A stretch of DNA of 64,000 nucleotides from Burkholderiales bacterium (GTDB lineage: Bacteria > Pseudomonadota > Gammaproteobacteria > Burkholderiales > SG8-39): the NCBI GenBank assembly GCA_035273665.1, contig DATEOW010000038.1, forward strand, positions 324 through 64,323, read 5' to 3'. This document shows positions 28,610-41,866 of the stretch, one piece after another (the first letter of the stretch is position 1; every line of letters begins with the position of its first letter). Below the pieces are notes generated by a model. That model saw nothing but the letters and a program-made list of their open reading frames with translations, ran no database searches and was not told the DNA's origin. The position numbers and the translations under genes are program-made.

Positions 28610-30821
28610 GCATCAGAATACTGTTGCCGCAGCTACCCCGGGCGCATCGCCGGCCTTTGCCTGGATGGCCGCCGCATTCACGCTCTTCATTATTTACGGG
28701 AGCTTGGTGCCTTTCGATTATGAAGTCACCACAGAGACGGAAGCACTTGCAAAGCTGCGCGCCATGTTGCGACAGCCCATTGGTCCCGATACTTCTTCCG
28801 ACTGGGCAGCCAACGTTCTTTTATTCGTCCCCTTCGCCTTTTTTCTGGCCGGTAGCTTCAAGACGGGACATCGCTGGTCAGATTTGATCAAAGCGGTGCT
28901 GCCGATATTCGGCTTGGCATTTTTACTGGGTGGCGCCGTTGAGTATGCGCAAATCTATTTCCCCCCCCGCAACCCTTCACTCAACGATCTGCTGGCGCAA
29001 AGCGTTGGGACCGGATTAGGTTTATGCGCATGGAAATTTTGGGGACAGGCACTAGGCCTCTGGCTCGATCGTCCAAGTGCGCAGCAAGGCGGCGGATATC
29101 GATCGGTGTTCTTCGCCTATATCGCGGTGCTGGTGATCTACAGTGCGTTCCCTCTCGATCTCAGCATGAGCATGGCGGAGATATACCGTAAGTTGCGCGC
29201 CGGTAAAATCGTCTTGCTCCCATTCAGCTATACCGGCAAAGCGGGCGCAGAGCTTCTCTATGACCTTCTCACCGATGTGTTGATTTGGGTTCCACCGGCT
29301 GTGCTGGCTTGGCGCGCCTTCGGATGGACGTCTTTCCAAGTTTTCGTTCGGCTCATCGCGATGGCGATCGGTATCGAGTTGATGCAGGTCTTTATACTGA
29401 GCCGCATTGCCGACCTTACGGATGTCGTGCTCGCGGGCGCAGGCGTCTTCGCCGGGTTGCGAATAGGTTCTCGTTTTGCCCCTCGGTCCGGTGAGAACAA
29501 GTTGTCCCTGCATGTGGCAGGGTCTGCATGGTTGCCTGTTGCATCGGGTCTTCTATGGGCCGTCGTTGTCATGCTCGTGTTCTGGTACCCCTACAATTTC
29601 GTGCTGGACGCAGACCTGCTCGCACGCCGGTGGCAGGCCGTCAGCAAACTTCCATTCATCGCCTATTTTGCGAGTACGGAATACCGCGCGCTGACAGAGG
29701 CTTTGCACAAATCCATTTTTTTCGCGCCGTTTGGGTTTGCGCTTGCTTGGATAGGGCGATCCCGCAAGCGGCTATTTGTCCTGAGCGGCGTGATGGTGCT
29801 TTTTTTCGCGTGCGGAATAGAGACAGGCAAATTGGTCTTGCCCGGCCGCTCGCCGGATCTCGGCAATATCATCGTGGAAATGTTGGGCGCATTCATGGGC
29901 TACATCTTGTTGTCGCGCAGGATGCACCGCTTCGCACTGTCATCTACGTCACCACGATGGCGTTGGCACACAGAAATTGCGGTGCTCTTGGCCGCTTCTC
30001 TTACGCTCGTACTGGGATTGCTCTGGCCGAGTGCCCCGGCCTTTTTCCATGAAGCTTTGGAGTCGCCTCTCTTACTGAGTTTGGCTGTACTGCTGCTGTG
30101 GTTTTACGCGCTTGCTCGTCTCCCCTTGTTGACGTTCTTTGTGGAACGGAGCGCGCGCCAATTAGCCGCAGTAAGCGCGCTGTACTTTCTATCTGCTTTT
30201 CTTGGCGCCGCGCTTTTGGATATGGTGTTCACGTCGACTGCTTTGATCAACAGTGCGATATGGCAGGCCGTATTGCTCTGGGCCGTCGCTGGGGGTGGGC
30301 TTGGCGTCGCCCGTGCTGCCAAAGCTGTGCAGCGGCCTCACCTAACCTCGATCCTTTGGTTTGTTTCCATCCCTTTCTTATTCGGCGCACTGTATTGGAA
30401 TTTTGAAGGGCTTTCGTGGGAAAACGGCGAGGCTTTGCATTCGAGCAAAGCATGGACGGCCTTCACCTCGATGCTTGCGCTGAGCCTAATAGGAGCGGCG
30501 CCGGCATTTGTCAGTTATCGCGTCGCGTCCAAGGGCGCACACGCAATCTTCGCGGGCGTTCTCGTATGGTTATTCTTGATCGTCGTGAGCTTTTTTATTA
30601 TGCGAGCAGGACTGGCCGAGGCACTCATCATTGAGGGACGCGTTTATACCGGCCTTGAGTATTTCTTGAGTTCCGGGCCGCAGTACGCGCTCAGTCCGTC
30701 GGCCTTACTTCTACGCTATGTGTTGATATGCGGTTGCGCTACGGCGGTGATTGGATTGCTGCAATATCCGATGTGGCGCCGCAGGTTCTCGGTTCAAATA
30801 CCTTCAGGCCGATATAAATAA
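28596..30821 (+). CDS. Polytopic membrane protein with three tandem VanZ-like modules plus a ~300-aa C-terminal membrane domain
   Basis: 741 aa. Three repeats each carry an N/D-hhhF/W-h-P-h segment (NVLLFVPFAFFL, DVLIWVPPAVLA, KSIFFAPFGFAL) and an E-x2-Q/K...R-x4-D-h3-x2-G-x3-G segment (VEYAQIYFPPRNPSLNDLLAQSVGTGLG, IELMQVFILSRIADLTDVVLAGAGVFAG, IETGKLVLPGRSPDLGNIIVEMLGAFMG). Confidence 0.75.
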   Translation: MTDAEHQNTVAAATPGASPAFAWMAAAFTLFIIYGSLVPFDYEVTTETEALAKLRAMLRQPIGPDTSSDWAANVLLFVPFAFFLAGSFKTGHRWSDLIKAVLPIFGLAFLLGGAVEYAQIYFPPRNPSLNDLLAQSVGTGLGLCAWKFWGQALGLWLDRPSAQQGGGYRSVFFAYIAVLVIYSAFPLDLSMSMAEIYRKLRAGKIVLLPFSYTGKAGAELLYDLLTDVLIWVPPAVLAWRAFGWTSFQVFVRLIAMAIGIELMQVFILSRIADLTDVVLAGAGVFAGLRIGSRFAPRSGENKLSLHVAGSAWLPVASGLLWAVVVMLVFWYPYNFVLDADLLARRWQAVSKLPFIAYFASTEYRALTEALHKSIFFAPFGFALAWIGRSRKRLFVLSGVMVLFFACGIETGKLVLPGRSPDLGNIIVEMLGAFMGYILLSRRMHRFALSSTSPRWRWHTEIAVLLAASLTLVLGLLWPSAPAFFHEALESPLLLSLAVLLLWFYALARLPLLTFFVERSARQLAAVSALYFLSAFLGAALLDMVFTSTALINSAIWQAVLLWAVAGGGLGVARAAKAVQRPHLTSILWFVSIPFLFGALYWNFEGLSWENGEALHSSKAWTAFTSMLALSLIGAAPAFVSYRVASKGAHAIFAGVLVWLFLIVVSFFIMRAGLAEALIIEGRVYTGLEYFLSSGPQYALSPSALLLRYVLICGCATAVIGLLQYPMWRRRFSVQIPSGRYK

Positions 30822-33100
30822 GTCTGCCCGTCCACACTGCCCACATAGCAGAAACACTTCAATGCAGGGACCCAATGCCAGCGTTTGAAAGTTCCCGTCG
30901 CTTGGAAGTCCGGAAGTTTCTCGCCGCGCATGGTCAATTGTTTGACTTGCCACTCGCCTTGAAAAGGATCTTCGGGTACCTCTATGCGCCAAAGCACCTG
31001 CTGGCGGCCGCGACGCGCGGACGGCATGTACGCAAAGATGCATTGCAAGTCGGGACAGAACTCAAAACCACAACCGTAGGCGGCGCTTTTGGGAATTTCA
31101 TCGCCGCCCAAACGCCCGGTCTGCCACGCTCGCGGATCCTTTAAATCCAATAAGGACAGTATTGCCTCTCCGCTCGGACGATTGACCCCGAGCATCGCCC
31201 AAGTGTCCGACTTTTCGAGATAAACGCTCGTGCCCATATAGGCGGTTTCTTTCGGCGCCTTGATTTTGAGATCGGTGTGCTGGCGCGAGCGCAAATCGAG
31301 ATAACTTAGGCCGGTGGGTCGCGGTGGAGAAGGTGAGCGCCAGATTCGGTCCCGCTTGGGATCGAACACGCTTCCTTGCACTTTGCCTAGACCATGCGAT
31401 TTCGCCTTGTTGAGCGAAAAACGCGACCACTTCCCCGTATCGAGGTCCAGCACATGCGAGCGATAGGTGTCGCATACGGTGTAGACGATGGTGGAACACA
31501 CGCGCAAAAGACCGCCGCGTTTGTTGCCCATGTAGCTGGGCGGTAGCCAATGCAACGTGTCATGCGTATGCGGGGTGCCTGGCGTTCCGTCGCCATGTTC
31601 GCATTCAATGCGATCGAAACTGGGGTCTTTTTTATGACCTTTGCCATTCATGGCGGTGGTCGGTTCGCCGACACGTTCCCATTTGAGCGTATCAAAGGGA
31701 AAGGCATAAGCCTCCGTGCCGAAATAATCGCCATCGCCGCCGCCATGGACCACAAGCGCGCCGTAGGGTCCCCAACTCTCGGCGATGATGCCGGAGGTCC
31801 ACGCCTTGAGCATTCCGGCTAGTCCTCCATAGGCGAGATACACGCAATCCTTGCTCGGACATGCGCCCACGGCGCGGATATTGTTACGCGCAACACCTTT
31901 GACTTCGCCGGGGGCCGGGAGGAAATTCGCATCGACGGCTTTAGCGTGAGCCGAACCGATGAAGAACAGCGCTTGTGCTAGCGGTTTGTTGTTCCGGCTG
32001 TAATGGAAGATCGCGTCTACCGCACCCGGTCGACCCACGGTGCCGAAAGAGATGATGGCGTCGAGTGTCGGGTCGTAGCTGCTGTAGTTCAAATAGGACG
32101 CCGTGCCTTGCGGATTGCGAGGTTGCGGGGGCCCGGGATGAAGCGCGCCGCTTTCAGTGGACACGAGCACCGACTCAGGACTGCCGCCGTGTGGGCCCCA
32201 TAAAAACAATTCCCGACTTCGGCTCAAGTAGGGCATATCGATCGCCGAATACACCGGCCAAGGCAAGGTCGCGAGTAGGCGATTTTTGAAGCTGCGCAAA
32301 TCCACTTCGAATATGCGTGCGGGCTCGCGTTTGCCGCAGTCGAGAAACCACATGAGCCGGCGCTCGGGGTCTATGGCGCCTTGTCGCCATCTCGCTGCGG
32401 GCTTTGAACGCGCATCGCCATTGGAAAACCGTCGCTCGATGCTGTGGCTCGACAGATCGAGCACGCGAATCGCGGTACCTGCGCCGCCATCGTAATACGC
32501 GTAGTAGACACGGTCGTCGATCGGGTCGAGTACACCGCGCGACCCGCTCTGGCCGCCAAAAAAATCGCCTTCCCTGACTTGCCACTTGCGGTTGCCCGTG
32601 TGATCGAAGCTCATAAGCCGTTGACGCACCGGCGTGGCTGCGCCCGCTTTCCACGGCGTTTCGTATAGGGTTTCCTTGAACATGTAGCCGCCCGCCATCA
32701 GGAGGCGACCGCGTTTGGCATCTTCAACGAGGGTCACTTCATCCGGGTGACAAGGTTGCACCTCCCCCGCGGGGCCCCAATAGGGATACTCAAGGCGCCA
32801 TGCTTCGCGGCCTTCACGCTGGGCGAGGGCATCGTAGCTCCATAAGGTGTTAACCCCGCTTTCGATCGCCCAGGGGTTGCGCATGTCGCCGCCCAAGAAA
32901 TAATGGCGCCGGGTTAACGAGGCGTAGCAGACGCGTGAATGCTTATTCGGTGACGCCGGCATGCTTCGAGCGCCTTGGGGATCAAGCGCGAAGCGTTCGA
33001 CTCGCCACTCCGAATCAGGAACCCGCTCAGTGACGGCACGCGCCACGAAGGGCGAGGCAATCGACACGGCGGCTGCTTTCAGGAGTGTGCGGCGTTTCAT
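30794..33100 (-). CDS. Tat-signal secreted protein, beta-propeller-like (Kelch-type GG doublets), function unknown
   Basis: Start taken at ATG 33100 (MKRRTLLKAAAVSIASPFVARA, a twin-arginine signal). The TTG extension to 33154 is rejected. About 768 aa, beta-rich, with recurring hydrophobic-GG motifs (YFLGGD, LLMAGGY, YYDGGAG, VVHGGGDGDY). Confidence 0.75.
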   Translation of the reverse strand: MKRRTLLKAAAVSIASPFVARAVTERVPDSEWRVERFALDPQGARSMPASPNKHSRVCYASLTRRHYFLGGDMRNPWAIESGVNTLWSYDALAQREGREAWRLEYPYWGPAGEVQPCHPDEVTLVEDAKRGRLLMAGGYMFKETLYETPWKAGAATPVRQRLMSFDHTGNRKWQVREGDFFGGQSGSRGVLDPIDDRVYYAYYDGGAGTAIRVLDLSSHSIERRFSNGDARSKPAARWRQGAIDPERRLMWFLDCGKREPARIFEVDLRSFKNRLLATLPWPVYSAIDMPYLSRSRELFLWGPHGGSPESVLVSTESGALHPGPPQPRNPQGTASYLNYSSYDPTLDAIISFGTVGRPGAVDAIFHYSRNNKPLAQALFFIGSAHAKAVDANFLPAPGEVKGVARNNIRAVGACPSKDCVYLAYGGLAGMLKAWTSGIIAESWGPYGALVVHGGGDGDYFGTEAYAFPFDTLKWERVGEPTTAMNGKGHKKDPSFDRIECEHGDGTPGTPHTHDTLHWLPPSYMGNKRGGLLRVCSTIVYTVCDTYRSHVLDLDTGKWSRFSLNKAKSHGLGKVQGSVFDPKRDRIWRSPSPPRPTGLSYLDLRSRQHTDLKIKAPKETAYMGTSVYLEKSDTWAMLGVNRPSGEAILSLLDLKDPRAWQTGRLGGDEIPKSAAYGCGFEFCPDLQCIFAYMPSARRGRQQVLWRIEVPEDPFQGEWQVKQLTMRGEKLPDFQATGTFKRWHWVPALKCFCYVGSVDGQTYLYRPEGI

Positions 33101-33171
33101 GCGGGACGAAGATTTTCCATTTTTAACACTCCCGCGTGCCCAGGGGTGGTACAAAGGCGAGCCCGAGGGGT

Positions 33172-33187
33172 TGCAAGGCAGGTGCCT
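33172..33187 (-). promoter_or_regulatory. Candidate sigma54 (-24/-12) promoter for the Tat-signal propeller-like gene
   Basis: The - strand reads AGGCAC-CTGCC-TTGCA (GG-N10-GC; consensus TGGCAC-N5-TTGCW). It lies about 70 nt upstream of ATG 33100. Confidence 0.55.
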
Positions 33188-33286
33188 GTCGACATTCTTT
33201 ACAAAACGACTTCATGGCCTGTTTTGTCGGATAACAAACATAAGAAATGACTTTTCGAAACAATATGCTGCCCACCATGCGGGTCT

Positions 33287-33302
33287 TGGCATCAGCGTTG
33301 CT
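33287..33302 (+). promoter_or_regulatory. Candidate sigma54 (-24/-12) promoter for the 33358-36289 operon
   Basis: TGGCAT-CAGCG-TTGCT (GG-N10-GC). The -12 element lies about 55 nt upstream of ATG 33358. A sigma54-dependent activator (PrsR) is encoded 7 kb downstream. Confidence 0.6.
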
Positions 33303-33357
33303 TTAGACGCTCTGCAAATCGGCTCGGCCTTGTCCGAGCGAATTTAGAAAAAACATT

Positions 33358-33933
33358 ATGAGCCTGGAACGTCGACGTTTAGTGAAAGGTGCCTTGGCGG
33401 CACCCCTGATTTTGACCGTGCGCACGGCCTCCGCTGGGGGCAAGGGCGGTGGTCATCATGGGGGCGGCGGTGGAGGGGGCGGCAATGTGATGCTCAGCGT
33501 CGGGGCGTGTCTAGCGCGCGACGATGAGCGATCCAAGGGTTATGACGGTCCCAAGGCCGTCCTGTCGAAATACGAAAAAAGCGATAACTGGCTTCGCAAG
33601 AAAGTGGAAGTCTGCAAGCTCAAGTGGAACTCTTCAGGCAAGCATGACAAGCCGGACGCCGATTACGACGCAAAAGCACTCTACGTTCTAGGCCACGACA
33701 ACAAGTGGTGGAAGTTGGACGCTGCCGACAAGTGGGGGAAGAATCCCAAATACACCGGTATGTCCAAACCCCAATATTCTCGTAAATCGACCGACAGCTG
33801 GCGTTATGCGCTGGTCCAGGTCGATCCGAATAGCGGCGAAGTCGTCGGTTTCTCCTGGGAAAAAGAAGACGGGCAATTGGCGACCTGCACTTGCTGGGTT
33901 TCCTTCGTCGCCGCCAACAAAAATCGCGCTTAA
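33358..33933 (+). CDS. Tat-signal small secreted protein with Gly/His-rich mature N-terminus, unknown function
   Basis: MSLERRRLVKGALAAPLILTVRTASA has a twin-arginine motif and an ASA cleavage site. It is followed by GGKGGGHHGGGGGGGGN and then a Lys/Trp/Asp-rich domain with four Cys. No PEP-CTERM tail. Confidence 0.7.
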   Translation: MSLERRRLVKGALAAPLILTVRTASAGGKGGGHHGGGGGGGGNVMLSVGACLARDDERSKGYDGPKAVLSKYEKSDNWLRKKVEVCKLKWNSSGKHDKPDADYDAKALYVLGHDNKWWKLDAADKWGKNPKYTGMSKPQYSRKSTDSWRYALVQVDPNSGEVVGFSWEKEDGQLATCTCWVSFVAANKNRA

Positions 33934-33948
33934 GTTTCTCGTCGTTTC

Positions 33949-34248
33949 GTGGGCGAGCAACACGTATCCCAAAGATGGTCTTTGCGTTTTCCCGCTGAAA
34001 CGCAGATCTGCCATTTCGATGGCGAATCACTAGTCTTCAATCCTCTATCGTGGGAAACCCATCTTCTGAACGTCTCGGCCGCCGAGGTCGTTTCCGTTTT
34101 GTCCGAGGGACCGCAATACTTCGATATTTTGGTCGGACGTATGCGTGAAGCCGGAATGAATGTCCAGAATGGCGTATCTGTAGAGGATCAGCTTGAGGGC
34201 CTGTTAATCGAGTTGGAGAGCCTGGGCATAGCGATTCGCAGCCTATGA
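33949..34248 (+). CDS. PqqD-family peptide-binding protein (HPr-rel-A system PqqD-like chaperone type)
   Basis: 99 aa with a GTG start 15 nt after the upstream stop. FDGESLVFNPLSWETHLLNVSAAEVVSVL matches the PqqD/RRE pattern (x-h-h-F-N-x-x-x-x-x-x-x-x-LN-x-x-A-x-x-h). Confidence 0.75.
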   Translation: MGEQHVSQRWSLRFPAETQICHFDGESLVFNPLSWETHLLNVSAAEVVSVLSEGPQYFDILVGRMREAGMNVQNGVSVEDQLEGLLIELESLGIAIRSL

Positions 34249-35162
34249 GGCGACTTAACGAGTTGGCGCCCGATCAACTCCGCGGAGCGCTGCAAGCGGA
34301 AGGCATCGGACTATCTCTTGGCACGGCGCGCGTCCATATTCGCAGCGATGTACCTGCACTCGCGCCTGCATTGGCACGCGTTTATGGGCAATTCCCTGTC
34401 GAAGAGCCGAGTGGATTTTTTGATGTCGCTCCAAGACTTGAACTTGTTCGCCGTCCTGGGCAATTGTTCCGTGCGCAACTCCGCTTTTTTGTAGACGGGG
34501 AAGTGCCTTTCGAGCTTTTTCCCGGCGATACGCATTTACCTTTGTTGGAATGGGGCTTGAATTGGTGCCTTGCCGACCGTTCGAATCACAAATTGTTGCT
34601 GCATGCGGGCGTCGTAGAGAAAAACGGGCGCGCTGCGATCCTTCCAGCCTTGCCGGGATCGGGAAAGAGCACCTTGACGGCGGCCCTCAGTGCAAGAGGT
34701 TTTCGGCTTCTTTCCGATGAGTTTGGCGTGCTTGACCCGATGGATGGGACGCTGCGCGCATTGCTGCGCCCCATCGCATTAAAGAACGAATCGATTGAGG
34801 TCATCCGCCGGTTTCATCCTGACGCGGTGCTTGGTCCACGGTTCCCGAAAACGCGCAAAGGCGACGTCGCGCATATGGCGCCAGATCGCGCCAGCGTGGA
34901 TCGACGAGATGAGCCGGCAGTGCCGCATGTCGTGCTTTTTCCCGCCTACGAAGCGGGGGCGGCGACGGTGCTGGAGGAATTGCCGCCGGCACGCTGTTTC
35001 GCCAAGCTCTCCACGAATTCCTTCAACTACGAAGTACTTGGGCCCGCCGGATTTCGTGCCGTAACACGGCTTGTCGAATCTACGCGTGGCTACAGCCTTC
35101 GCTATAGCACGCTTGAGGAAGCGGTCGAGCGCGTGCAGCGCCTGTTCGAGAGCGAACGATGA
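34245..35162 (+). CDS. HPr-kinase-related P-loop kinase (HprK-related kinase A type)
   Basis: ATGA overlap with the PqqD-like gene. HAGVVEKNGRAAILPALPGSGKSTLTAALSARGFRLLSDEF parallels the HprK catalytic core (H-G-V-x-V...G-x-S-G-x-GKS...RG-x-x-L-h-x-D-D/E). Confidence 0.85.
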   Translation: MRRLNELAPDQLRGALQAEGIGLSLGTARVHIRSDVPALAPALARVYGQFPVEEPSGFFDVAPRLELVRRPGQLFRAQLRFFVDGEVPFELFPGDTHLPLLEWGLNWCLADRSNHKLLLHAGVVEKNGRAAILPALPGSGKSTLTAALSARGFRLLSDEFGVLDPMDGTLRALLRPIALKNESIEVIRRFHPDAVLGPRFPKTRKGDVAHMAPDRASVDRRDEPAVPHVVLFPAYEAGAATVLEELPPARCFAKLSTNSFNYEVLGPAGFRAVTRLVESTRGYSLRYSTLEEAVERVQRLFESER

Positions 35163-36289
35163 GTGCCGCTTCTACCCTGTGTTGGTTCAGGCCGGCGCCG
35201 CACATCGTAGATTTGCTGGGGTTGCTTGGCGGGCGCACAAGCGCTGCGGACCTATCACTCGAGCAATGGGACGTGTTGGTGCGCACGGCGAGACGTTTGC
35301 GCCTCCTGGGAACGGTTGCGTACCGCCTACGGGCAGATAGTGATCAATGGGCCGCTGTTCCAGGGCCGGTACGGGCGCATTTTGAATCCGCGCTGACCAC
35401 CCTCGCCTTTCGACGGCAGAAAGTGCTGCTGGAAATGGATAGCGTCCGCCAAGCCTTGAGTGACCCTGCTATCCCAATCGTCCTGCTTAAAGGGGCGGCT
35501 TATATTGCTCAGAATCTCCCTTTGGCGCATCAACGGCTGGTAGGCGATCTCGATCTGCTGGTCGATCGGGATCGCTTGGACGAGGTTGAAACCAGACTGA
35601 TCGATAGCGGATGGGAATCGCTAAAACCGGATCCTTACGATCAAAAATATTATCGAGATTGGTCACATGAATTGCCGCCGATGCAATTGCCTGGGCACGC
35701 TTTGGAGTTGGATGTACACCACAACATCCTTCCCCCTACCGGGCGTCTTCATCCTCAGGCGGCGCAGCTCATACGCGATGCCATTCCGCTAGAAGAAGGT
35801 TTTTTCCGCGTGCCGCATCCTGCCGATCAGGTGCTGCATGCCGCAGTCCATCTGTTTCAGGATTCCGATTGCCTTTTTCGTGCGCGCGATCTAGTGGATA
35901 TCGACGAACTTATCCGAAACTTCGGGCAAACGCCGTCTTTCTGGGATGAGCTGATATCGCATGCGCGAGTGCATGGTATAGAACGGCCACTCTGGTATGC
36001 ACTGGACTGTGGCGTCGCCATCTTCGATACGCCTGTGCCCAATACCCTGTTCGAAAAATTAAATACTAGGGGTCCGGGCTATGCGGCCCGTACAATGATG
36101 CGCCTTTTGCTTCCGAAAGTACTTTTTACCGAACACCCAGAACGCACTCCTGCCATATCGGAGCGCGTTGCCCGTTGGCTCCTCTTCCTTCGATCGTTCT
36201 GGTTGCGCATGCCCTTAGGGCTATTGCTGCTGCATAGCGCCATGAAGCTGATAAGAAACTTCCGCAAAACGTCAGAGCGTACTGAATAG
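35159..36289 (+). CDS. NTP_transf_5-type nucleotidyltransferase family protein
   Basis: ATGA overlap with the kinase gene. VLLKGAAYIAQNLPLAHQRLVGDLDLLVDRDRLDEVETRLIDSGWE matches the uncharacterised nucleotidyltransferase family (KG...R-x-x-x-D-h-D-L-L-V). Confidence 0.8.
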   Translation: MSAASTLCWFRPAPHIVDLLGLLGGRTSAADLSLEQWDVLVRTARRLRLLGTVAYRLRADSDQWAAVPGPVRAHFESALTTLAFRRQKVLLEMDSVRQALSDPAIPIVLLKGAAYIAQNLPLAHQRLVGDLDLLVDRDRLDEVETRLIDSGWESLKPDPYDQKYYRDWSHELPPMQLPGHALELDVHHNILPPTGRLHPQAAQLIRDAIPLEEGFFRVPHPADQVLHAAVHLFQDSDCLFRARDLVDIDELIRNFGQTPSFWDELISHARVHGIERPLWYALDCGVAIFDTPVPNTLFEKLNTRGPGYAARTMMRLLLPKVLFTEHPERTPAISERVARWLLFLRSFWLRMPLGLLLLHSAMKLIRNFRKTSERTE

Positions 36290-36312
36290 ACCCAGTTTGT
36301 CTGTACCACTTA

Positions 36313-36328
36313 TGGCATGCCGGTTGCT
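36313..36328 (+). promoter_or_regulatory. Candidate sigma54 (-24/-12) promoter at the head of a 648-bp non-coding leader
   Basis: TGGCAT-GCCGG-TTGCT (GG-N10-GC), 24 nt after the stop at 36289. It has the same hexamer and -12 element as the site at 33287. Confidence 0.55.
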
Positions 36329-36937
36329 GGCAGTTGCATCGGCGGGGAAGTTCGAGTTCGCAGGGGCGCTGCAGCGCTAAGTGGGTTGGGCGCAAGTGCT
36401 ACGCGTATTTGTCAATCTTTAACAAACCCAAACAAACCGCTATGGCATCTTAAGCGCCCGTAGTCTCGCCGTAATTAGGCTGAGCTTGTGTACTAGACGA
36501 TGATACATAGCTCTAGTCTTAGGCCTAACGAGGAATTGAGAACATGGTGTTTGGTATGACACGATGAAGCGTGAGTAAGGCAACCGAAGGAGCAGTTTAA
36601 GCACTTAAAAATAGAGTTAGGAGAGGCAATACTGCGGTTCGTTACAGCCGCCTGAAGCGTCAGCGAATGTTGCATATGCATTCGGTCAAATCCAGGCAAA
36701 CACCGTAGTCAATGGAAGTCCTGTCCCCTGCGTCACATAGCGACGCAATTAAAAGAACAACAGTTTTCTCGAGTTTTGCAGTATCGCCGTCCAAAAAGAA
36801 GCGAAGGACGTATAGGTTGCTTTTGCCCAGTGGAACCGCAGTAACAATGTGCAGCGCGGGGGAATGCAGTCTTGTAATAAAAAAGAGCGATAACAAAAAC
36901 GATAAACGGAGGATAAAAAGATGAGGGGTTTGCTTGT

Positions 36938-38326
36938 ATGGTTAACTTGTTTCGCCACTACGTACCGTTGGCAACGATTCTGCAGTTAGCGCTCGAAGCG
37001 GGATTATTTTTCGCCGCTATTCTGCTTGCGGTAATGATGCAGACGCACAGCACGTTGCTGTCGAGTAGTCTGCCCATTCTGCCGGCCTTCGCGTTCGCAG
37101 CCTTGATGGTTTGCGTCAACAGCGCGCTTGGACTGTACAGACGCGATAGCGCGCCCTCCTTTTCGCATATGGCGCCTCGCCTATTGGTCGCCCTATTGAT
37201 TGGGTTCCCCCTTGCTTACGCCCTTTTTTCGGCGCTTCCGCATGGCGGCCTCTATCAGGATGCGCTGGGCTACACGGTCCTCCTCGTATTAGCCGGCTTA
37301 TTAATTTTACGTCGTGTCCTAAGCGCTTCGATCTTGGGCGGTACTTTGCTTAGCCGCCGTGTGCTCATTCTCGGAACGGGCGCAGACGCCTTAGCGGTGG
37401 ATCAAGCCTTAATGGGGCCGCGCGGCTCGGGTTATACCGTGGTTGGCTTCTATCCCATTAGCAATAACGTGAACGTATCGGTTCCACAGCACCGAGTGCT
37501 GCAACCGGTCGAGTCGCTGCAATCCCTGATCCGATATCTCGCCGTTGACGAAGTGATCGTCGCAGTACGCGAACAACGCGGTGGCGTCGTGCCGATGAGT
37601 TGTCTGCTCAACTGCCGTCTCGAGGGTGTCCGCGTGACCGACCTGCCCGGTTTTTATGAACGTGTGCGGGGCGAGGTGCCCATCGAATCGCTAAAGGCGA
37701 GCTGGCTGATTTATGGCGAAGGCTTTAGGCAGGGGCGCATGCGCAATATCGTCAAACGCGCCTTCGACGTTGCGACCGCGGGTACGCTGCTCGTCCTCAC
37801 TTTTCCGCTCATGGTGCTCGTGGCATTGACCATCCTGTTCGAGGGCGGCGGCGCCGTCATTTATCGTCAGGAACGTGTGGGCCGGGGCGGCCGACCGTTC
37901 ACGGTCTACAAATTCCGCAGTATGGTCGCCGACGCGGAAGGCGATGGCCAAGCGCGGTGGGCCCAAACGAATGATCCACGGGTCACCGCGTTTGGAAAAT
38001 TTATCCGCCGCACGCGTATGGACGAGTTACCGCAACTTTGGAATGTTCTCAAAGGCGAAATGAGCTTTGTGGGTCCTCGCCCTGAGCGTCCCCAGTTCGT
38101 CGGCGAATTGGAGCAATCGATTCCTTATTACGGCGCGCGTCATAGCGTCAAACCGGGTCTGACTGGATGGGCGCAAGTGCGTTATAGCTACGGCGCGTCT
38201 GTGGAAGACGCGACTCGCAAACTACAGTTCGACTTGTATTACGTCAAAAACCATTCACTCTTTCTCGATTTGTTGGTTCTGGTCGAAACGGTGCGTGTGG
38301 TCCTGTGGGGTGAAGGGGCGCGCTGA
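36938..38326 (+). CDS. Priming sugar transferase (bacterial sugar transferase family, EpsB/PEP-CTERM-associated type)
   Basis: MVNLFRHYVPLATILQLALEAGLFF is an N-terminus typical of the family. C-terminal catalytic domain KRAFDV...YRQERVG...FKFRSM...DELPQLWNVLKGEMSFVGPRPERP. Confidence 0.9.
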   Translation: MVNLFRHYVPLATILQLALEAGLFFAAILLAVMMQTHSTLLSSSLPILPAFAFAALMVCVNSALGLYRRDSAPSFSHMAPRLLVALLIGFPLAYALFSALPHGGLYQDALGYTVLLVLAGLLILRRVLSASILGGTLLSRRVLILGTGADALAVDQALMGPRGSGYTVVGFYPISNNVNVSVPQHRVLQPVESLQSLIRYLAVDEVIVAVREQRGGVVPMSCLLNCRLEGVRVTDLPGFYERVRGEVPIESLKASWLIYGEGFRQGRMRNIVKRAFDVATAGTLLVLTFPLMVLVALTILFEGGGAVIYRQERVGRGGRPFTVYKFRSMVADAEGDGQARWAQTNDPRVTAFGKFIRRTRMDELPQLWNVLKGEMSFVGPRPERPQFVGELEQSIPYYGARHSVKPGLTGWAQVRYSYGASVEDATRKLQFDLYYVKNHSLFLDLLVLVETVRVVLWGEGAR

Positions 38327-38423: not shown

Positions 38424-40517
38424 TTGAATCCCACCGCTTTTGCCGACCCAGCGACCTGGAGTTACGGCTTCGCTGCGCTAGGGTTTACTGCTTTTGCGAT
38501 TCAACTCGCACTGGCATGGCGCGGCGGCTCGCGCGCTTGGTGGTTGCTCGCCGCCGTTTCGCTTGGGGCGTCGTGGGCAGCGGCGGGTCTGGGTTTCGTC
38601 CTCACGCAAAACAGCCTTTGGTGGACGCTAAGCCGTTGGCTCCAACTTGCGCAGATCGCAGCATGGTGCGTTTTCTTGTTGTTGCTCGCCACTGATCGAG
38701 ACAATAGCCGGCCGTGGGAATCGTTGTTGTTCAAGGGCGGGCTCTTTGCGCTCATCGTGCTTCTTTTGGGAGCCGGCTATTCGCCGTCTTATCCGCCTGC
38801 CGATGCAGTGCCTACCCAGGATGCGCGGTTTGGTTATTCCGCCATGGTGGGCCTTGCTATTCTTCAATTGGTCTTGCTCGAACAAATCTGGCGCAATGCG
38901 CCGGAAGCGAACCGCTGGGCGCTCAAGCCGCTTTGCTTGGGCCTTGGAGCCGCTTTTATTTATAACTTGTACATGTACGCCGAGGCCTCGCTTTTCGGCG
39001 TCTTGAGCCAGAATCTTTGGAGTGCGCACGCCGCAACACAAGCCTTGGTGATTCCCTATATCGCCATCGCGGCGGCCCGCAACAAACAGTGGACGATCGA
39101 CATCCACATGTCGCGGCAAGTGGTGTTCCACTCTACCGCGCTGCTCGGATGCGGCATTTATCTTTTGCTTGCATCGGCGATCGGCTATTACATTCGTTTT
39201 TTTGGCGGGAGCTGGGGCGGCACTTTACAAGTGGCGCTTCTTTTCGGCGCTTTATTGTTGCTAGGCATGCTCTTTTCGTCCGGGACGCTGCGCAGCAAGC
39301 TGCGCGTGTTCGTCAATAAGAATTTCTTTTCCTATCGTTATGACTATCGGGAAGAGTGGCTTCGTTTCACTCGACGCTTATCGAGCCGCGAGGCAACGGC
39401 AAATTTGAATGAGACCTCGATTCAAGCGCTCGCCGATCTGGTCGAAAGCCCCGCGGGCGCTTTATGGCTTCGCCGGGAAGGGAAAGTCTTCCGGCAGGTG
39501 GCCAGATGGAATATGCCTGCGGTCGCAGAATCGGAGTCCGACACCAGTTCGCTGGCCCTATTCCTCGCGCGAACAGGATGGGTTGTCGATGTTTCCCAAT
39601 ATCGACTCAAACCCGAACTTTACGATGGGCTTGTGTTGCCTGACTGGATGGAACGCTCGGAGGACGTATGGATCGTGCTTCCTCTGCAGGGCGCCGAAGA
39701 GTTGAACGGCTTTGTCGTGCTCGCGAACTCAAGGGTGAAACTCGATATCAATTGGGAAGTTCTGGATTTACTTAAAACGGCCGCCCGCCAGACTGCGAGC
39801 TACTTGGGCCATGTGAATGCCGTCGAAGCGCTGATGGAGGCGCGCAAGTTCGACGCTTTCAACCGCATGTCCGCTTTCGTCGTTCACGATCTGAAAAACC
39901 TTGTGGCGCAATTGAATCTGATGATCAAGAATGCGGAACGCCATCGCCACAATCCCGAGTTCCAGCGCGATATGATGGACACCGTACAGCACGTCGCCAG
40001 CAGAATGAATCATCTGTTGATGCAACTGCGCGCCGGCGCCACGCCGATAGAGAACGCCAAAGCAATCGATCTCAGCGCGATTGTTCGACGTGTGGAACGC
40101 GCCAAGGGCGCCGGAGAGCGGTTAAGTATTCAAGTGGAGGAAAACCTAACTGTATGCGGCCATGAGGAACGACTTGAACACGTCGTCGGGCACCTCGTTC
40201 AGAATGCACTCGACGCAACGGAAGCCGGCGGACAGGTAGAGATTCGCGTTATTCCCGCAAGCGACGCCGAAGCGTTGCTGGAAGTCGAGGACAGCGGTAT
40301 CGGAATGAGCCCCGAATTCGTGCGCGAGCGTTTGTTCCGACCTTTTCAAAGTACCAAACCGACCGGCATGGGGATCGGCGCATACGAGAGCGCACAATAC
40401 CTTCAGGGGATTGGCGCTCGTTTGCAAGTTCAGAGCGTCCCCGGACAGGGAACGCGCATTCAGGTATATCTGCCTCGGCCGAAGAACGCCGAAATCAACT
40501 TGGTTCAAGCCGCATGA
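38424..40517 (+). CDS. prsK: XrtA/PEP-CTERM system sensor histidine kinase
   Basis: About 300-aa polytopic N-terminal domain followed by a GAF-like region. H-box FVVHDLKNLVAQL, N-box LVQNALDA, G-boxes EVEDSGIGM and GMGIGAYES. TTG start in the ORF track, so the exact start is uncertain. Overlaps prsR by 4 nt. Confidence 0.85.
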   Translation: MNPTAFADPATWSYGFAALGFTAFAIQLALAWRGGSRAWWLLAAVSLGASWAAAGLGFVLTQNSLWWTLSRWLQLAQIAAWCVFLLLLATDRDNSRPWESLLFKGGLFALIVLLLGAGYSPSYPPADAVPTQDARFGYSAMVGLAILQLVLLEQIWRNAPEANRWALKPLCLGLGAAFIYNLYMYAEASLFGVLSQNLWSAHAATQALVIPYIAIAAARNKQWTIDIHMSRQVVFHSTALLGCGIYLLLASAIGYYIRFFGGSWGGTLQVALLFGALLLLGMLFSSGTLRSKLRVFVNKNFFSYRYDYREEWLRFTRRLSSREATANLNETSIQALADLVESPAGALWLRREGKVFRQVARWNMPAVAESESDTSSLALFLARTGWVVDVSQYRLKPELYDGLVLPDWMERSEDVWIVLPLQGAEELNGFVVLANSRVKLDINWEVLDLLKTAARQTASYLGHVNAVEALMEARKFDAFNRMSAFVVHDLKNLVAQLNLMIKNAERHRHNPEFQRDMMDTVQHVASRMNHLLMQLRAGATPIENAKAIDLSAIVRRVERAKGAGERLSIQVEENLTVCGHEERLEHVVGHLVQNALDATEAGGQVEIRVIPASDAEALLEVEDSGIGMSPEFVRERLFRPFQSTKPTGMGIGAYESAQYLQGIGARLQVQSVPGQGTRIQVYLPRPKNAEINLVQAA

Positions 40518-41866
40518 GCGAAAAACGCAAGCCTTTGCTGATTATCGAAGACGACCCGGCATTGCAGAAGCAGATGCGGTGGGCTTTCGACGCCTATGAA
40601 ACGGTGGTCGCGGACGACTACGAGAGCGCCATTACGCAATTGCGTCGCTACGAACCGGCAGTTATCACGATGGATCTGGGTTTACCCCCGCATCCGGACG
40701 ACACCCGGGAGGGTTTCCGGCTGTTACAAGATCTGTTGGCGCTTGCGCCCGATGTGAAAGTCATCGTGCTGACGGGGCAGCATGACCGGGACAATGCGCT
40801 GAAAGCGATTGGTATGGGGGCGTACGATTTTTTCGCCAAACCTTTCGAGCCGGAGATGCTCAGCCTCACCATCGAGCGGGCCTTTAGATTGTTCGAGTTG
40901 CAGGAGGAGAATCGCCGTTTGCAAGCAGTGGCGATGGAGGGCGATCCCAATGGTTTGATCACCCGCGACCCGGCTATGCAACGCGTCTGCCGCATGGTGG
41001 AGAAAGTAGCCGCGACCAACGCCACCGCGCTCCTTTTGGGCGATTCTGGCACGGGCAAGGAGTTACTCGCGCGGGCGCTGCATCGTCAGTCACCGCGTAA
41101 AGACAATCGTTTTGTCGCGATCAACTGCGCCGCTATCCCGGAGAACCTGCTCGAAAGCGAGTTGTTCGGCTATGAGAAGGGTGCCTTCACCGGTGCTGCG
41201 AAGACAACGCCGGGAAAAATAGAAACCGCTCATAACGGCACGCTTTTCCTCGATGAGATCGGCGATCTGCCGCACCCATTGCAAGCCAAACTCTTGCGGT
41301 TCTTGCAGGAGCGCGTCATCGAGCGGGTCGGCGGGAGAGAGGAAATTCCGGTCGATGTACGTATCGTCTGCGCAACGCATCAGCATCTCAAAGATCTCAT
41401 CGCCAACGGGCGCTTCCGAGAAGACTTGTACTATCGGCTGGCGGAAGTGGTTTTGGAGATCCCGCCTTTACGCGAGCGGCCGGGCGATGCAAGTCTGCTT
41501 GCACACGTCTTTGTTCGCCGCTTCGCCAGTGAACAGAAGCGCGGAAGCATGACCTTGTCTCAAGAGGCGCTTGCCGCGATTGAGGCGCATCCATGGCCCG
41601 GGAATGTTCGGGAATTGGAAAACACCATCAAGCGGGCAGTGATCATGTCGGAGGGACAGACCCTGCGCGCGGATGACATTGGTTTGGACGAGGTGGAGGA
41701 GAACCCCGAAGCCCTCAATCTACGCCATGTGCGAGAAACCGCGGAAAAACAGGCGGTGGTACGCGTCTTGGGCCGCGTCAATGGCAATCTAAGCCGCGCA
41801 GCGGAGTTGCTCGGCGTCAGCCGTCCCACCTTGTACGATTTGATGCATCGATTCGGACTCAAATAA
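40514..41866 (+). CDS. prsR: PEP-CTERM-box sigma54-dependent response regulator
   Basis: REC domain (LLIIEDDPALQKQM, TMDLGLPP). AAA+ domain with Walker A GDSGTGKE, ESELFGYEKGAFTGA (GAFTGA) and Walker B TLFLDEIGDL. C-terminal HTH AAELLGVSRPTLYDLM. Confidence 0.9.
   Translation: MSEKRKPLLIIEDDPALQKQMRWAFDAYETVVADDYESAITQLRRYEPAVITMDLGLPPHPDDTREGFRLLQDLLALAPDVKVIVLTGQHDRDNALKAIGMGAYDFFAKPFEPEMLSLTIERAFRLFELQEENRRLQAVAMEGDPNGLITRDPAMQRVCRMVEKVAATNATALLLGDSGTGKELLARALHRQSPRKDNRFVAINCAAIPENLLESELFGYEKGAFTGAAKTTPGKIETAHNGTLFLDEIGDLPHPLQAKLLRFLQERVIERVGGREEIPVDVRIVCATHQHLKDLIANGRFREDLYYRLAEVVLEIPPLRERPGDASLLAHVFVRRFASEQKRGSMTLSQEALAAIEAHPWPGNVRELENTIKRAVIMSEGQTLRADDIGLDEVEENPEALNLRHVRETAEKQAVVRVLGRVNGNLSRAAELLGVSRPTLYDLMHRFGLK

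What the first reader, a model, noticed from the sequence alone, without database searches (positions are those of the whole stretch)
33172..33302. Back-to-back sigma54-type promoters driving two divergent Tat-signal genes
Seen directly:
- The + strand reads TGGCAT-CAGCG-TTGCT at 33287-33302.
- The - strand reads AGGCAC-CTGCC-TTGCA at 33187-33172.
- Both have exact GG-N10-GC spacing and a TTGC -12 element.
- Each faces outwards towards a gene whose product starts with a twin-arginine signal (33358 + and 33100 -).
- About 100 bp lies between them. It contains the palindrome TGTCGACA (33187-33194) and a TGTTT-N11-AAACA element (33224-33244). Either could be a shared enhancer site.

Established knowledge: sigma54 promoters need an AAA+ activator. 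PrsR, with a GAFTGA motif, is encoded at 40514-41866 and is the dedicated activator of PEP-CTERM systems.

Inference: both accessory genes belong to the PrsK/PrsR regulon.
Basis: partly seen in the sequence, partly recalled or inferred. Interest (0 to 1): 0.65.

Follow-up and report, generated by a model that had tools for sequence, protein, structure and literature searches.

The report
PEP-CTERM-box sigma54 promoter plus divergent partner
One of the two back-to-back promoter-like sites is a textbook 'PEP-CTERM box' sigma-54 promoter, with the predicted PrsR enhancer 83 bp upstream, and it places a conserved protein-modification gene cassette in the PrsR regulon; the opposite site is a plausible sigma-54 promoter whose activator is unknown.

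Summary

**The + site is real with high confidence.**
- This is 'motif 1' of Haft et al. 2006, the predicted PrsR binding site. It lies 83 nt upstream of the -24 box.
- The exact motif occurs 4 times in the 2.56-Mb genome (about 0.15 expected), always intergenic.
- The same motif 1 + sigma54 pair precedes PEP-CTERM genes in this genome.
- It also precedes the HprK_rel_A cassette in 9 (plus 2 marginal) of 13 other genomes. Spacers cluster at about 62, 73, 83 and 92 nt, one helical turn apart.

**The - site is plausible but not proven.**
- In favour: 13 bits on my matrix, intergenic, correctly oriented, and GG/TTGCA kept in the one relative while 4 of 5 spacer bases changed.
- Against: it is lineage-specific, and the only motif 1 abuts its -24 box (spacer 0, against a published minimum of 32).

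The claim that both genes belong to the PrsR regulon is therefore supported for one gene only. This is a new member of a known kind of element.

The parts
33287..33302 (+). P(+): sigma54 -24/-12 promoter TGGCATCAGCGTTGCT. The predicted transcription start is near 33313, 45 nt before the ATG at 33358.
   Evidence: Exact consensus match. Scores 14.7 bits on my matrix. Conserved in L005 with only one spacer base changed. Motif 1 lies 83 nt upstream.
33187..33203 (+). PEP-CTERM-box motif 1, TGTCGACATTCTTTACA (a TGT-N11-ACA quasi-palindrome). This is the predicted PrsR binding site (upstream activating sequence).
   Evidence: Occurs 4 times in the genome against about 0.15 expected, always intergenic. 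It is the only match to the degenerate pattern in the window. It fits Haft 2006's description of a 17-nt motif ending in TTTACA. L005 keeps both half-sites while 3 of the 5 spacer bases changed.
33172..33187 (-). P(-): sigma54-like site AGGCACCTGCCTTGCA. The predicted transcription start is near 33161, 61 nt before the ATG at 33100. It shares base 33187 with motif 1.
   Evidence: Scores 13.05 bits. This class of site is enriched in intergenic DNA. L005 reads AGGCCC-TGAGC-TTGCA, keeping GG, TTGCA and the spacing while 4 of 5 spacer bases changed. No sigma70-like promoter is found in the region.
33225..33240 (+). Motif-1-like 16-mer TGTCGGATAACAAACA (TGT-N10-ACA). It could be a second, weaker activator site or an architectural-protein site.
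   Evidence: L005 keeps TGTCGA-ACGG-CAAACA. It is unique in the genome. It lies 46 nt from P(+) and 37 nt from P(-).
33223..33272 (.). Conserved block between motif 1 and P(+). It is flanked by diverged segments (33204-33222 and 33273-33286).
   Evidence: Two-sequence alignment with L005. This is a footprint by inference only.
33358..33933 (+). First gene of the P(+) operon: a 191-aa protein with a conserved Tat-like leader (RRRLVKGALAAPLILTV) followed by a Gly/His tract.
   Evidence: Homologous first genes with the same leader are found in L006-L017.
33949..34248 (+). HPr-rel-A system PqqD-family peptide chaperone.
   Evidence: TIGR04353, 52.8 bits against a cut-off of 35.
34245..35162 (+). 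HprK-related kinase A.
   Evidence: TIGR04352, 346 bits against a cut-off of 200.
35159..36289 (+). NTP_transf_5 nucleotidyltransferase, the last gene of the presumed operon.
   Evidence: PF14907, E = 2.9e-52. Its start overlaps the preceding gene by 4 nt.
30794..33100 (-). 768-aa Tat-signal protein made of two ~370-aa Kelch-type beta-propeller modules. It is monocistronic and is the gene that P(-) faces.
   Evidence: 739 homologues, most of them matching a single half of the protein. The homologues carry Kelch Pfam hits.
40514..41866 (+). PrsR, the sigma54 enhancer-binding response regulator.
   Evidence: TIGR02915, 738 bits against a cut-off of 502.6. It is one of six enhancer-binding proteins in the genome.
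38424..40517 (+). PrsK histidine kinase.
   Evidence: TIGR02916, 807 bits.

Best explanation
**P(+) (33287-33302) is a PrsR-dependent 'PEP-CTERM box' sigma54 promoter.**
- Phosphorylated PrsR binds the quasi-palindromic motif 1, TGTCGA-N5-TTTACA (33187-33203).
- It loops over an 83-nt spacer, which is the canonical ~62 nt plus two helical turns.
- It then drives open-complex formation by RNA polymerase-sigma54.
- The transcript covers the four-gene cassette: 191-aa Tat-leader protein, PqqD_rel_X, HprK_rel_A and NTP_transf_5.
- This cassette is therefore a conserved, non-PEP-CTERM member of the PrsK/PrsR regulon.

**P(-) (33187-33172) is probably a genuine sigma54 binding site for the 768-aa double-Kelch gene.**
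- It is a lineage-specific addition.
- It lacks a canonically placed motif 1, so its activator is unassigned: PrsR acting from the abutting or second site, or one of the five other enhancer-binding proteins.

**Shown versus inferred**
- Shown: the sequences, their statistics, their conservation, and the co-occurrence with PrsR.
- Inferred: binding, looping, transcription starts and operon structure.
For: **Motif 1 matches the published element**
- It fits the published PrsR-site description and spacer range (PMC1569441).
- The exact motif occurs 4 times in the genome against ~0.15 expected, always intergenic.

**Same architecture in this genome**
- PEP-CTERM genes C22, C118 and C195 carry a strong motif 1 plus a sigma54 site with a 62-nt spacer. 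C189 has the same 62-nt spacer but only a weak motif-1 match (7.5 bits).
- C210 has a 65-nt spacer.
- Motif-1 scores are bimodal: at least 21 bits at these sites, below 12 bits elsewhere.

**Same architecture in other genomes**
- Across 13 other HprK_rel_A loci, 9 have a clear motif 1 plus sigma54 site before the first gene, 2 are marginal and 2 lack it.
- Spacers are 61-65, 73-75, 81-84 and 92 nt. Rayleigh R = 0.72 at a 10-10.25 bp period, p about 1e-4.

**Co-occurrence with PrsR**
- 12 of 14 genomes with HprK_rel_A have PrsR, against 3 of 47 without it.
- G030 lacks PrsR, and its cassette lacks motif 1.

**Machinery and controls**
- Two rpoN genes are present.
- glnA carries a sigma54 site, which serves as a positive control for my matrix.

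**Conservation in L005**
- P(+) and motif 1 are conserved while their flanks and spacers diverged.
- For P(-), 1 of 11 specified bases changed against 4 of 5 spacer bases.

**Other support**
- No sigma70-like promoter lies in 32900-34300.
- pepA of Aquincola is RpoN1-dependent, with a mapped start and the predicted enhancer upstream (PMC9850573).
Against: **General limits**
- PrsR binding to motif 1 has not, as far as I could find, been shown biochemically. It remains Haft's prediction.
- My sigma54 matrix is an approximation written from memory of the Barrios compilation.
- The motif-1 matrix was built from the same sites it scores.

**Specific to P(-)**
- Only one relative is available for footprinting, and there the -24 box weakens to AGGCCC.
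- The site is absent from the loci scanned on that strand, 12 of the 13 other cassette loci, including the same-genus genome (L018 was not scanned on that strand).
- Motif 1 at about -26 to -42 would clash with the polymerase footprint.
- Distant full-length homologues of the 768-aa gene sit inside operons with no sigma54 site.
Confidence: 0.8

Rival explanations
1. One reading: both promoters work, and both are activated by PrsR from shared sites in the 99-bp interval. The 768-aa Kelch protein and the HPr-rel-A cassette would then be co-induced.
For: - PrsR is the only enhancer-binding protein encoded in the window, and one of six in the genome.
- Motif 1 is a quasi-palindrome, so orientation need not matter.
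- A motif-1-like 16-mer lies 37 nt from P(-) and is partly conserved.
- Haft notes that motif 1 is sometimes repeated.
- P(-) is conserved in L005.
Against: - The spacer from motif 1 to P(-) is 0 nt, against a published minimum of 32.
- No other motif 1 lies within 220 nt; the best scores 0.8 bits.
- The 16-mer has the wrong spacing and does not recur anywhere in the genome.
- No reverse sigma54 site turned up next to motif 1 in an upstream scan of 12 of the 13 other cassette loci. None was found at offset 0 in 400 genomes of the order.
Confidence: 0.3
2. P(-) is a real sigma54 promoter that answers to a different enhancer-binding protein. The two back-to-back promoters would then belong to two regulons that happen to adjoin. 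PrsR bound at motif 1 might even occlude P(-).
For: - Five other enhancer-binding proteins and two rpoN genes are present.
- There is a precedent in L062/L063. There, motif 1 has a canonical + promoter (spacer 63) and, 30 nt away, a reverse sigma54 site that precedes a nasT-like ANTAR regulator typical of the nitrogen regulon.
- A conserved block at 33223-33272 is not explained by motif 1.
Against: - No recurring candidate site for another activator was found.
- The gene sits in an exopolysaccharide/PEP-CTERM locus, where PrsR control would be the economical guess.
Confidence: 0.3
3. P(-) is a chance match. The 768-aa gene would be transcribed from an unrecognised sigma70-type promoter, and only P(+) is a sigma54 promoter.
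For: - One-mismatch matches are at chance level in the window: 6 found, 5.2 expected.
- The -26 base is A.
- The L005 version falls to roughly 8-9 bits.
- The site abuts a site that is probably occupied by a protein.
- It is lineage-specific.
- Homologues elsewhere have no sigma54 promoter.
Against: - Sites of this class are about 6-fold or more enriched in intergenic DNA.
- Its orientation and its 61-nt leader are correct.
- GG, TTGCA and the exact spacing are kept in L005 although 4 of 5 spacer bases changed and there is a 2-nt indel nearby.
- TGGCCC -24 boxes occur in clear box promoters such as C195 and L016.
- No sigma70-like promoter was found.
Confidence: 0.35

Closest known systems
PEP-CTERM box cis-regulatory region (motif 1 + sigma54 motif 2) of Haft et al. 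2006, PMC1569441. pepA of Aquincola tertiaricarbonis RN12 is an experimentally RpoN1-dependent example (PMC9850573).
   Same: - A 17-nt motif ending in TTTACA.
- A spacer within the published 32-92 nt range.
- A GG-N10-GC sigma54 motif.
- A non-coding location a few tens of nt before a start codon.
[quoted passage not shown]
   Different: - The downstream genes have no PEP-CTERM tail. Instead they form the HPr-rel-A cassette.
- The spacer is 83 nt, two helical turns longer than the 62 nt used before this genome's PEP-CTERM genes.
- A second, divergent sigma54-like site abuts motif 1.
Divergent sigma54 promoter pairs with activator sites between them, for example E. coli zraP / zraSR with ZraR, or hyc / hyp with FhlA (from my own knowledge, not checked here).
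   Same: Two outward-facing -24/-12 promoters separated by about 100 bp that contains palindromic activator-type sites.
   Different: In those systems the activator sites lie roughly centrally and serve both promoters. Here the one clear site is 83 nt from one promoter and 0 nt from the other, and shared activation is untested.
NifA upstream activating sequence TGT-N10-ACA (from my own knowledge).
   Same: A TGT...ACA dyad recognised by a Fis-type helix-turn-helix of an NtrC-family activator, placed about 80-130 bp upstream with dependence on the face of the helix.
   Different: The spacing here is TGT-N11-ACA with the specific half-sites TGTCGA and TGTAAA. The activator is PrsR, a response regulator.

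Membership tests
PEP-CTERM box (Haft 2006 motif 1 + motif 2), for P(+) | A 17-nt motif 1 ending in TTTACA upstream of the promoter | tested here: met
   TGTCGACATTCTTTACA at 33187-33203. Matches this genome's PEP-CTERM-gene sites. Scores 25.1 bits. Description taken.
PEP-CTERM box (Haft 2006 motif 1 + motif 2), for P(+) | Spacer of 32-92 nt (mean 62.8) between motif 1 and the sigma54 motif | tested here: met
   83 nt (33204-33286). In phase with the 62/73/83/92 nt series seen across loci.
PEP-CTERM box (Haft 2006 motif 1 + motif 2), for P(+) | Genome encodes PrsR, PrsK and PrsT | tested here: met
   TIGR02915, TIGR02916 and TIGR02917 are all far above their cut-offs.
PEP-CTERM box (Haft 2006 motif 1 + motif 2), for P(+) | Downstream gene encodes a PEP-CTERM protein (typical of the family, but not required by Haft) | tested here: not met
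   The 191-aa product ends ...SFVAANKNRA, with no PEP motif or transmembrane tail. [quoted passage not shown]
PEP-CTERM box, for P(-) | Motif 1 placed 32-92 nt upstream | tested here: not met
   The only motif 1 overlaps the -24 box by one base. The best other match within 220 nt scores 0.8 bits.
sigma54-dependent promoter (both sites) | GG at -24 and GC at -12 with exact spacing, plus flanking consensus | tested here: met
   14.7 and 13.05 bits on an approximate matrix. glnA serves as a positive control.
sigma54-dependent promoter (both sites) | rpoN and an enhancer-binding protein present in the genome | tested here: met
   Two rpoN genes and six PF00158 activators.
sigma54-dependent promoter (both sites) | Transcription start about 12 nt downstream of the GC element, with expression dependent on rpoN and an activator | not testable with these tools
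Twin-arginine (Tat) signal peptides | An (S/T)RRxFLK-like motif, a hydrophobic region, an AxA cleavage site, and Tat machinery in the genome | tested here: inconclusive
   The motifs are visible: KRRTLLK...ARA and ERRRLVK...ASA. tatC is present. No Tat-signal HMM hit was obtained. The leader of the 191-aa family is unusually conserved and may also be a recognition element.

The most novel reading that the evidence does not exclude
One PrsR site would work as an asymmetric two-way switch. PrsR bound at motif 1 activates P(+) from the canonical looping distance. At the same time it occupies positions -26 to -42 of P(-), and so excludes RNA polymerase-sigma54 from it. Alternatively, it activates P(-) from an unprecedentedly close position. 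Either way, the secreted double-Kelch protein and the HPr-rel-A modification cassette would be reciprocally or jointly controlled from a single 17-bp element.
Probability: 0.15. Interest if true: 0.55.

Novelty: new member of a known kind. Interest (0 to 1): 0.4.

Why it matters
**What is new**
- The PEP-CTERM box has been known as a computational prediction since 2006, and the PrsK/PrsR regulon is still poorly charted.
- This work shows that the uncharacterised HPr-rel-A cassette (Tat-leader protein, PqqD-like chaperone, HPr-kinase-like kinase, nucleotidyltransferase) carries the box across several genera.
- The cassette also co-occurs with PrsR.
- This ties the cassette functionally to exopolysaccharide and floc formation, and gives a concrete condition (PrsR activation) under which to study it.

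**Testable mechanistic feature**
- The quantised spacers (about 62, 73, 83 and 92 nt) predict that PrsR must sit on a particular face of the helix to activate.

**What is ordinary**
- The back-to-back arrangement itself is confined to this lineage and is of modest interest unless the switch model holds.

Tried and rejected
**Searches for more relatives of the intergenic region**
- Orthologues of the 768-aa gene in 40 relatives: none, only weak partial hits.
- Word-index protein searches with the 768-aa protein, its N-terminal 200 aa and the 191-aa protein: only one relative, L005.
- Wobble-tolerant DNA pattern for the 191-aa leader in metagenome and genome collections: no hits.
- Distant full-length homologues of the 768-aa gene (L040, L041, ~30% identity): they sit behind co-directional genes, with no sigma54 site or motif 1 nearby, so they say nothing about P(-).

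**Searches for transcripts, RNAs and other promoters**
- Rfam on 32900-37100: nothing relevant.
- Sigma70 consensus scan: none found in the intergenic region.

**Tests of alternative elements**
- Whether a reverse sigma54 site adjoining motif 1 is a recurring design in 400 genomes of the order: 28 pattern hits against about 6 in the control. Only L062/L063 are convincing, and there the reverse promoter serves a nasT-like gene.

**Ideas rejected**
- That AGGCA-GG-TGCCT is a regulator palindrome: it is not conserved in L005.
- That the 768-aa gene is a recent foreign insert: its G+C content is unremarkable.

Full report
**The observation**

The sequence is as described.
- The + strand reads TGGCATCAGCGTTGCT at 33287-33302.
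- The - strand reads AGGCACCTGCCTTGCA at 33187-33172.
- 99 bp lie between them.
- TGTCGACA is at 33187-33194.
- The TGTTT-N11-AAACA element exists, but at 33220-33240 rather than 33224-33244.

The flanking genes start with twin-arginine-shaped leaders.
- The 768-aa product starts MKRRTLLKAAAVSIASPFVARA (ATG at 33100, - strand).
- The 191-aa product starts MSLERRRLVKGALAAPLILTVRTASA (ATG at 33358, + strand).
- No Tat HMM scored either leader. tatC is present in the genome.

The window is C38:324-64323 of a 2.56-Mb, 216-contig assembly with 57% G+C.

**Context**

- The + gene heads a compact string of four genes:
  - the 191-aa protein;
  - PqqD_rel_X, the 'HPr-rel-A system PqqD family peptide chaperone' (TIGR04353);
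  - HprK-related kinase A (TIGR04352, 346 bits);
  - an NTP_transf_5 nucleotidyltransferase.
- Further downstream lie the XrtA-type priming transferase EpsB_2, then PrsK, PrsR and PrsT, all far above their curated cut-offs.
- The - gene encodes two tandem ~370-aa Kelch-type propeller modules. It has 739 homologues, most covering one half only, and those homologues carry Kelch Pfam hits.
- The genome has two rpoN genes and six sigma54 activators, of which PrsR is the only one in the window.

**Is it more than chance?**

- The exact consensus TGGCAY-N5-TTGCW occurs twice in the window, at 33287 and 36313, against 0.13 expected. It occurs 8 times in the genome.
- With one mismatch allowed, the window as a whole is at chance: 6 found, 5.2 expected. 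The - site therefore cannot be judged on the pattern alone.
- I scored the genome with an approximate -26..-11 matrix. It is my own rendering of the Barrios compilation and should be treated as approximate.
  - P(+) scores 14.7 bits, P(-) 13.05 bits and the 36313 site 17.2 bits.
  - The glnA promoter is recovered, which serves as a positive control.
- Sites scoring at least 13 bits number 49 in coding DNA and 32 in the 9% of the genome my crude gene caller leaves intergenic. The coding density predicts 4.8.
- For the non-T class VGGCA(C/T)-N5-TTGC(A/T), 14 of 26 sites are intergenic, against about 1.2 expected.
- A correctly oriented intergenic site of either quality is therefore more likely real than not.

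**The key result: motif 1**

Several PEP-CTERM genes of this genome have sigma54 sites about 40-70 nt before their ATG.

About 62 nt further upstream they share TGTCGA-N5-TT(T/G)ACA.

The exact form TGTCGA-N5-TTTACA occurs four times in the genome (about 0.15 expected from base composition), and all four are intergenic:
- the window (33187-33203);
- C195, before a PEP-CTERM gene;
- C210;
- C156.

The element matches Haft et al. 2006 (PMC1569441). They describe:
- a 17-nt 'motif 1' ending in TTTACA, predicted to bind PrsR;
- a spacer averaging 62.8 nt (range 32-92);
- then a 17-nt sigma54 motif.

In the window the spacer is 83 nt. Motif-1 scores upstream of all 55 intergenic sigma54 candidates are bimodal. 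They reach at least 21 bits at C22, C118, C195, C210 and P(+), and stay below 12 bits elsewhere.

In Aquincola tertiaricarbonis, pepA has been shown to be RpoN1-dependent, with a mapped start and the predicted enhancer upstream (PMC9850573).

**Conservation across genomes**

The two genes themselves are nearly orphans by word-index search.

One metagenome contig, L005, keeps the divergent pair. Its 191-aa homologue is 91% identical. In the alignment:
- P(+) is identical except for one spacer base, while the 11 bp immediately upstream diverged.
- Motif 1 keeps both half-sites while 3 of its 5 spacer bases changed.
- P(-) keeps GG, TTGCA and the exact spacing, while 4 of its 5 spacer bases changed and a 2-nt indel arose just downstream. 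Its -24 box weakens to AGGCCC. That variant is also seen in clear box promoters such as C195 and L016.

The cassette gives wider reach. HprK_rel_A is present in 13 other genomes among the 60 relatives searched.
- In most of them it follows a PqqD-like gene and a ~190-aa first gene with the same leader, RRxL(L/I)KGxLAAP(L/I)xxT.
- Before that first gene, 9 loci have a clear motif 1 plus sigma54 site, 2 are marginal (L017, L019) and 2 have none (L013, L018).
- Spacers fall at 61-65, 73-75, 81-84 and 92 nt. Together with the in-genome sites, this gives Rayleigh R = 0.72 at a period of 10-10.25 bp, p about 1e-4. The caveats are that the loci are not fully independent and that the period was scanned.
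- The window's 83 nt is the canonical 62 nt plus two helical turns. The same-genus genome has 82 nt.

PrsR (above cut-off) is present in 12 of 14 genomes with HprK_rel_A, and in 3 of 47 without it.
- G030 lacks PrsR, and its cassette lacks the box.
- G047 has the box but no detected PrsR, in an assembly that is 89% complete.

I conclude that P(+) is a PEP-CTERM-box promoter, and that the HPr-rel-A cassette is a conserved member of the predicted PrsR regulon. I found no paper on this cassette.

**The minus promoter**

In favour:
- its score, orientation and 61-nt leader;
- the pattern of conservation in L005;
- the lack of any sigma70-like promoter;
- the gene is monocistronic and divergent, so it needs a promoter within 33101-33357.

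Against PrsR control:
- The only motif 1 shares base 33187 with its -24 box. That places the PrsR site at about -26 to -42, where it should collide with the polymerase footprint (inference).
- No other motif 1 lies within 220 nt.
- The 16-mer TGTCGGATAACAAACA (33225-33240; 37 nt from P(-), 46 nt from P(+)) is one base short. Its orientation suits P(+), it is partly conserved, and it occurs nowhere else in the genome.

Other cassette loci and other genomes:
- No comparable reverse site turned up in an upstream scan of 12 of the 13 other cassette loci. The best scores 9.2 bits; L018 was not scanned on that strand.
- A scan of 400 genomes of the order for a reverse sigma54 core within 30 nt of motif 1 gave 28 hits against about 6 in the control.
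- Only one convincing case emerged (L062/L063), and none at offset 0.
- In L062/L063 the reverse promoter precedes a nasT-like ANTAR regulator, which points to a different regulon.
- Distant homologues of the Kelch gene lie inside operons with no sigma54 site.

My estimates for P(-):
- a functional sigma54 promoter: about 0.65;
- PrsR-dependent: about 0.3;
- served by another activator: about 0.3;
- a chance match: about 0.35.

**Mechanism proposed**

PrsK senses an unknown signal and phosphorylates PrsR. PrsR binds the TGTCGA/TGTAAA dyad at 33187-33203 and oligomerises. It may be helped by the second site or by a bending protein in the conserved block 33223-33272. It contacts sigma54 at P(+) by looping on the correct helical face and opens the promoter. 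The start is expected near 33313, and the transcript covers the four-gene cassette. Every step after the sequence features themselves is inferred.

**Verdict**

- This is a new member, with an unusual neighbour, of a known kind of cis-regulatory element.

Noticed in passing
window 33097-33133 (- strand): A 7-codon upstream ORF, ATGGAAAATCTTCGTCCCGCATGA (MENLRPA*, 33120..33097), has a Shine-Dalgarno GGGAG at 33133..33129. Its TGA stop overlaps the ATG at 33100 of the 768-aa gene, which has no Shine-Dalgarno of its own. L005 keeps an in-frame GTG-started upstream ORF with the same ATGA overlap, despite a 6-nt insertion. This suggests translational coupling.
   Followed up: partly
G000:C210:14014-14230 (locus L037): Motif 1 (TGTCGACCAGCTTTACA), a 65-nt spacer and the sigma54 site TGGCGTAGATATTGCT are followed by about 115 nt with no ORF and then a strong intrinsic terminator. 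This is a candidate PrsR-dependent small RNA. Rfam gives only a sub-threshold P9 hit on the terminator.
   Followed up: partly
window 36313-36328 (+): A third sigma54 site, the best-scoring in the window (TGGCATGCCGGTTGCT, 17.2 bits), heads the 648-bp non-coding stretch before EpsB_2. It has no motif 1 within 220 nt upstream, so it is not a canonical PEP-CTERM box.
   Followed up: partly
G000:C128:37500-44700 and C149:6301-7713: The genome has two rpoN paralogues. The one on C128 is surrounded by several sigma54-like sites with a G at -26 (GGGCACGGGCTTTGCA, GGGCATGGGTATTGCA and others). This may be a paralogue-specific promoter class.
   Followed up: no
L006-L017, first genes of the HprK_rel_A cassettes: The first genes share a strongly conserved Tat-like leader, RRxL(L/I)KGxLAAP(L/I)xxT(L/V). 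Their mature parts fall into two unrelated classes: a CxSPSGF...YWKN type and an ACL...YWKLD...C..S type. The window's protein is of the second type. The leader may double as the recognition element for the PqqD-like protein.
   Followed up: partly
L062 1500-1640 (G068) and L063 (G122): Motif 1 has a canonical + promoter (spacer 63) before a small membrane protein. A strong reverse sigma54 site (AGGCATGAACTTTGCT) lies 30 nt away and precedes a nasT-like ANTAR response regulator. This is an example of back-to-back sigma54 promoters belonging to different regulons.
   Followed up: partly
window 33141-33165: The best-conserved stretch of the whole intergenic region against L005 (about 24 of 25 bases), CAGGGGTGGTACAAAGGCGAGCCC, lies at about +1 to +20 of the predicted P(-) transcript. 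Its function is unknown and Rfam finds nothing there.
   Followed up: no
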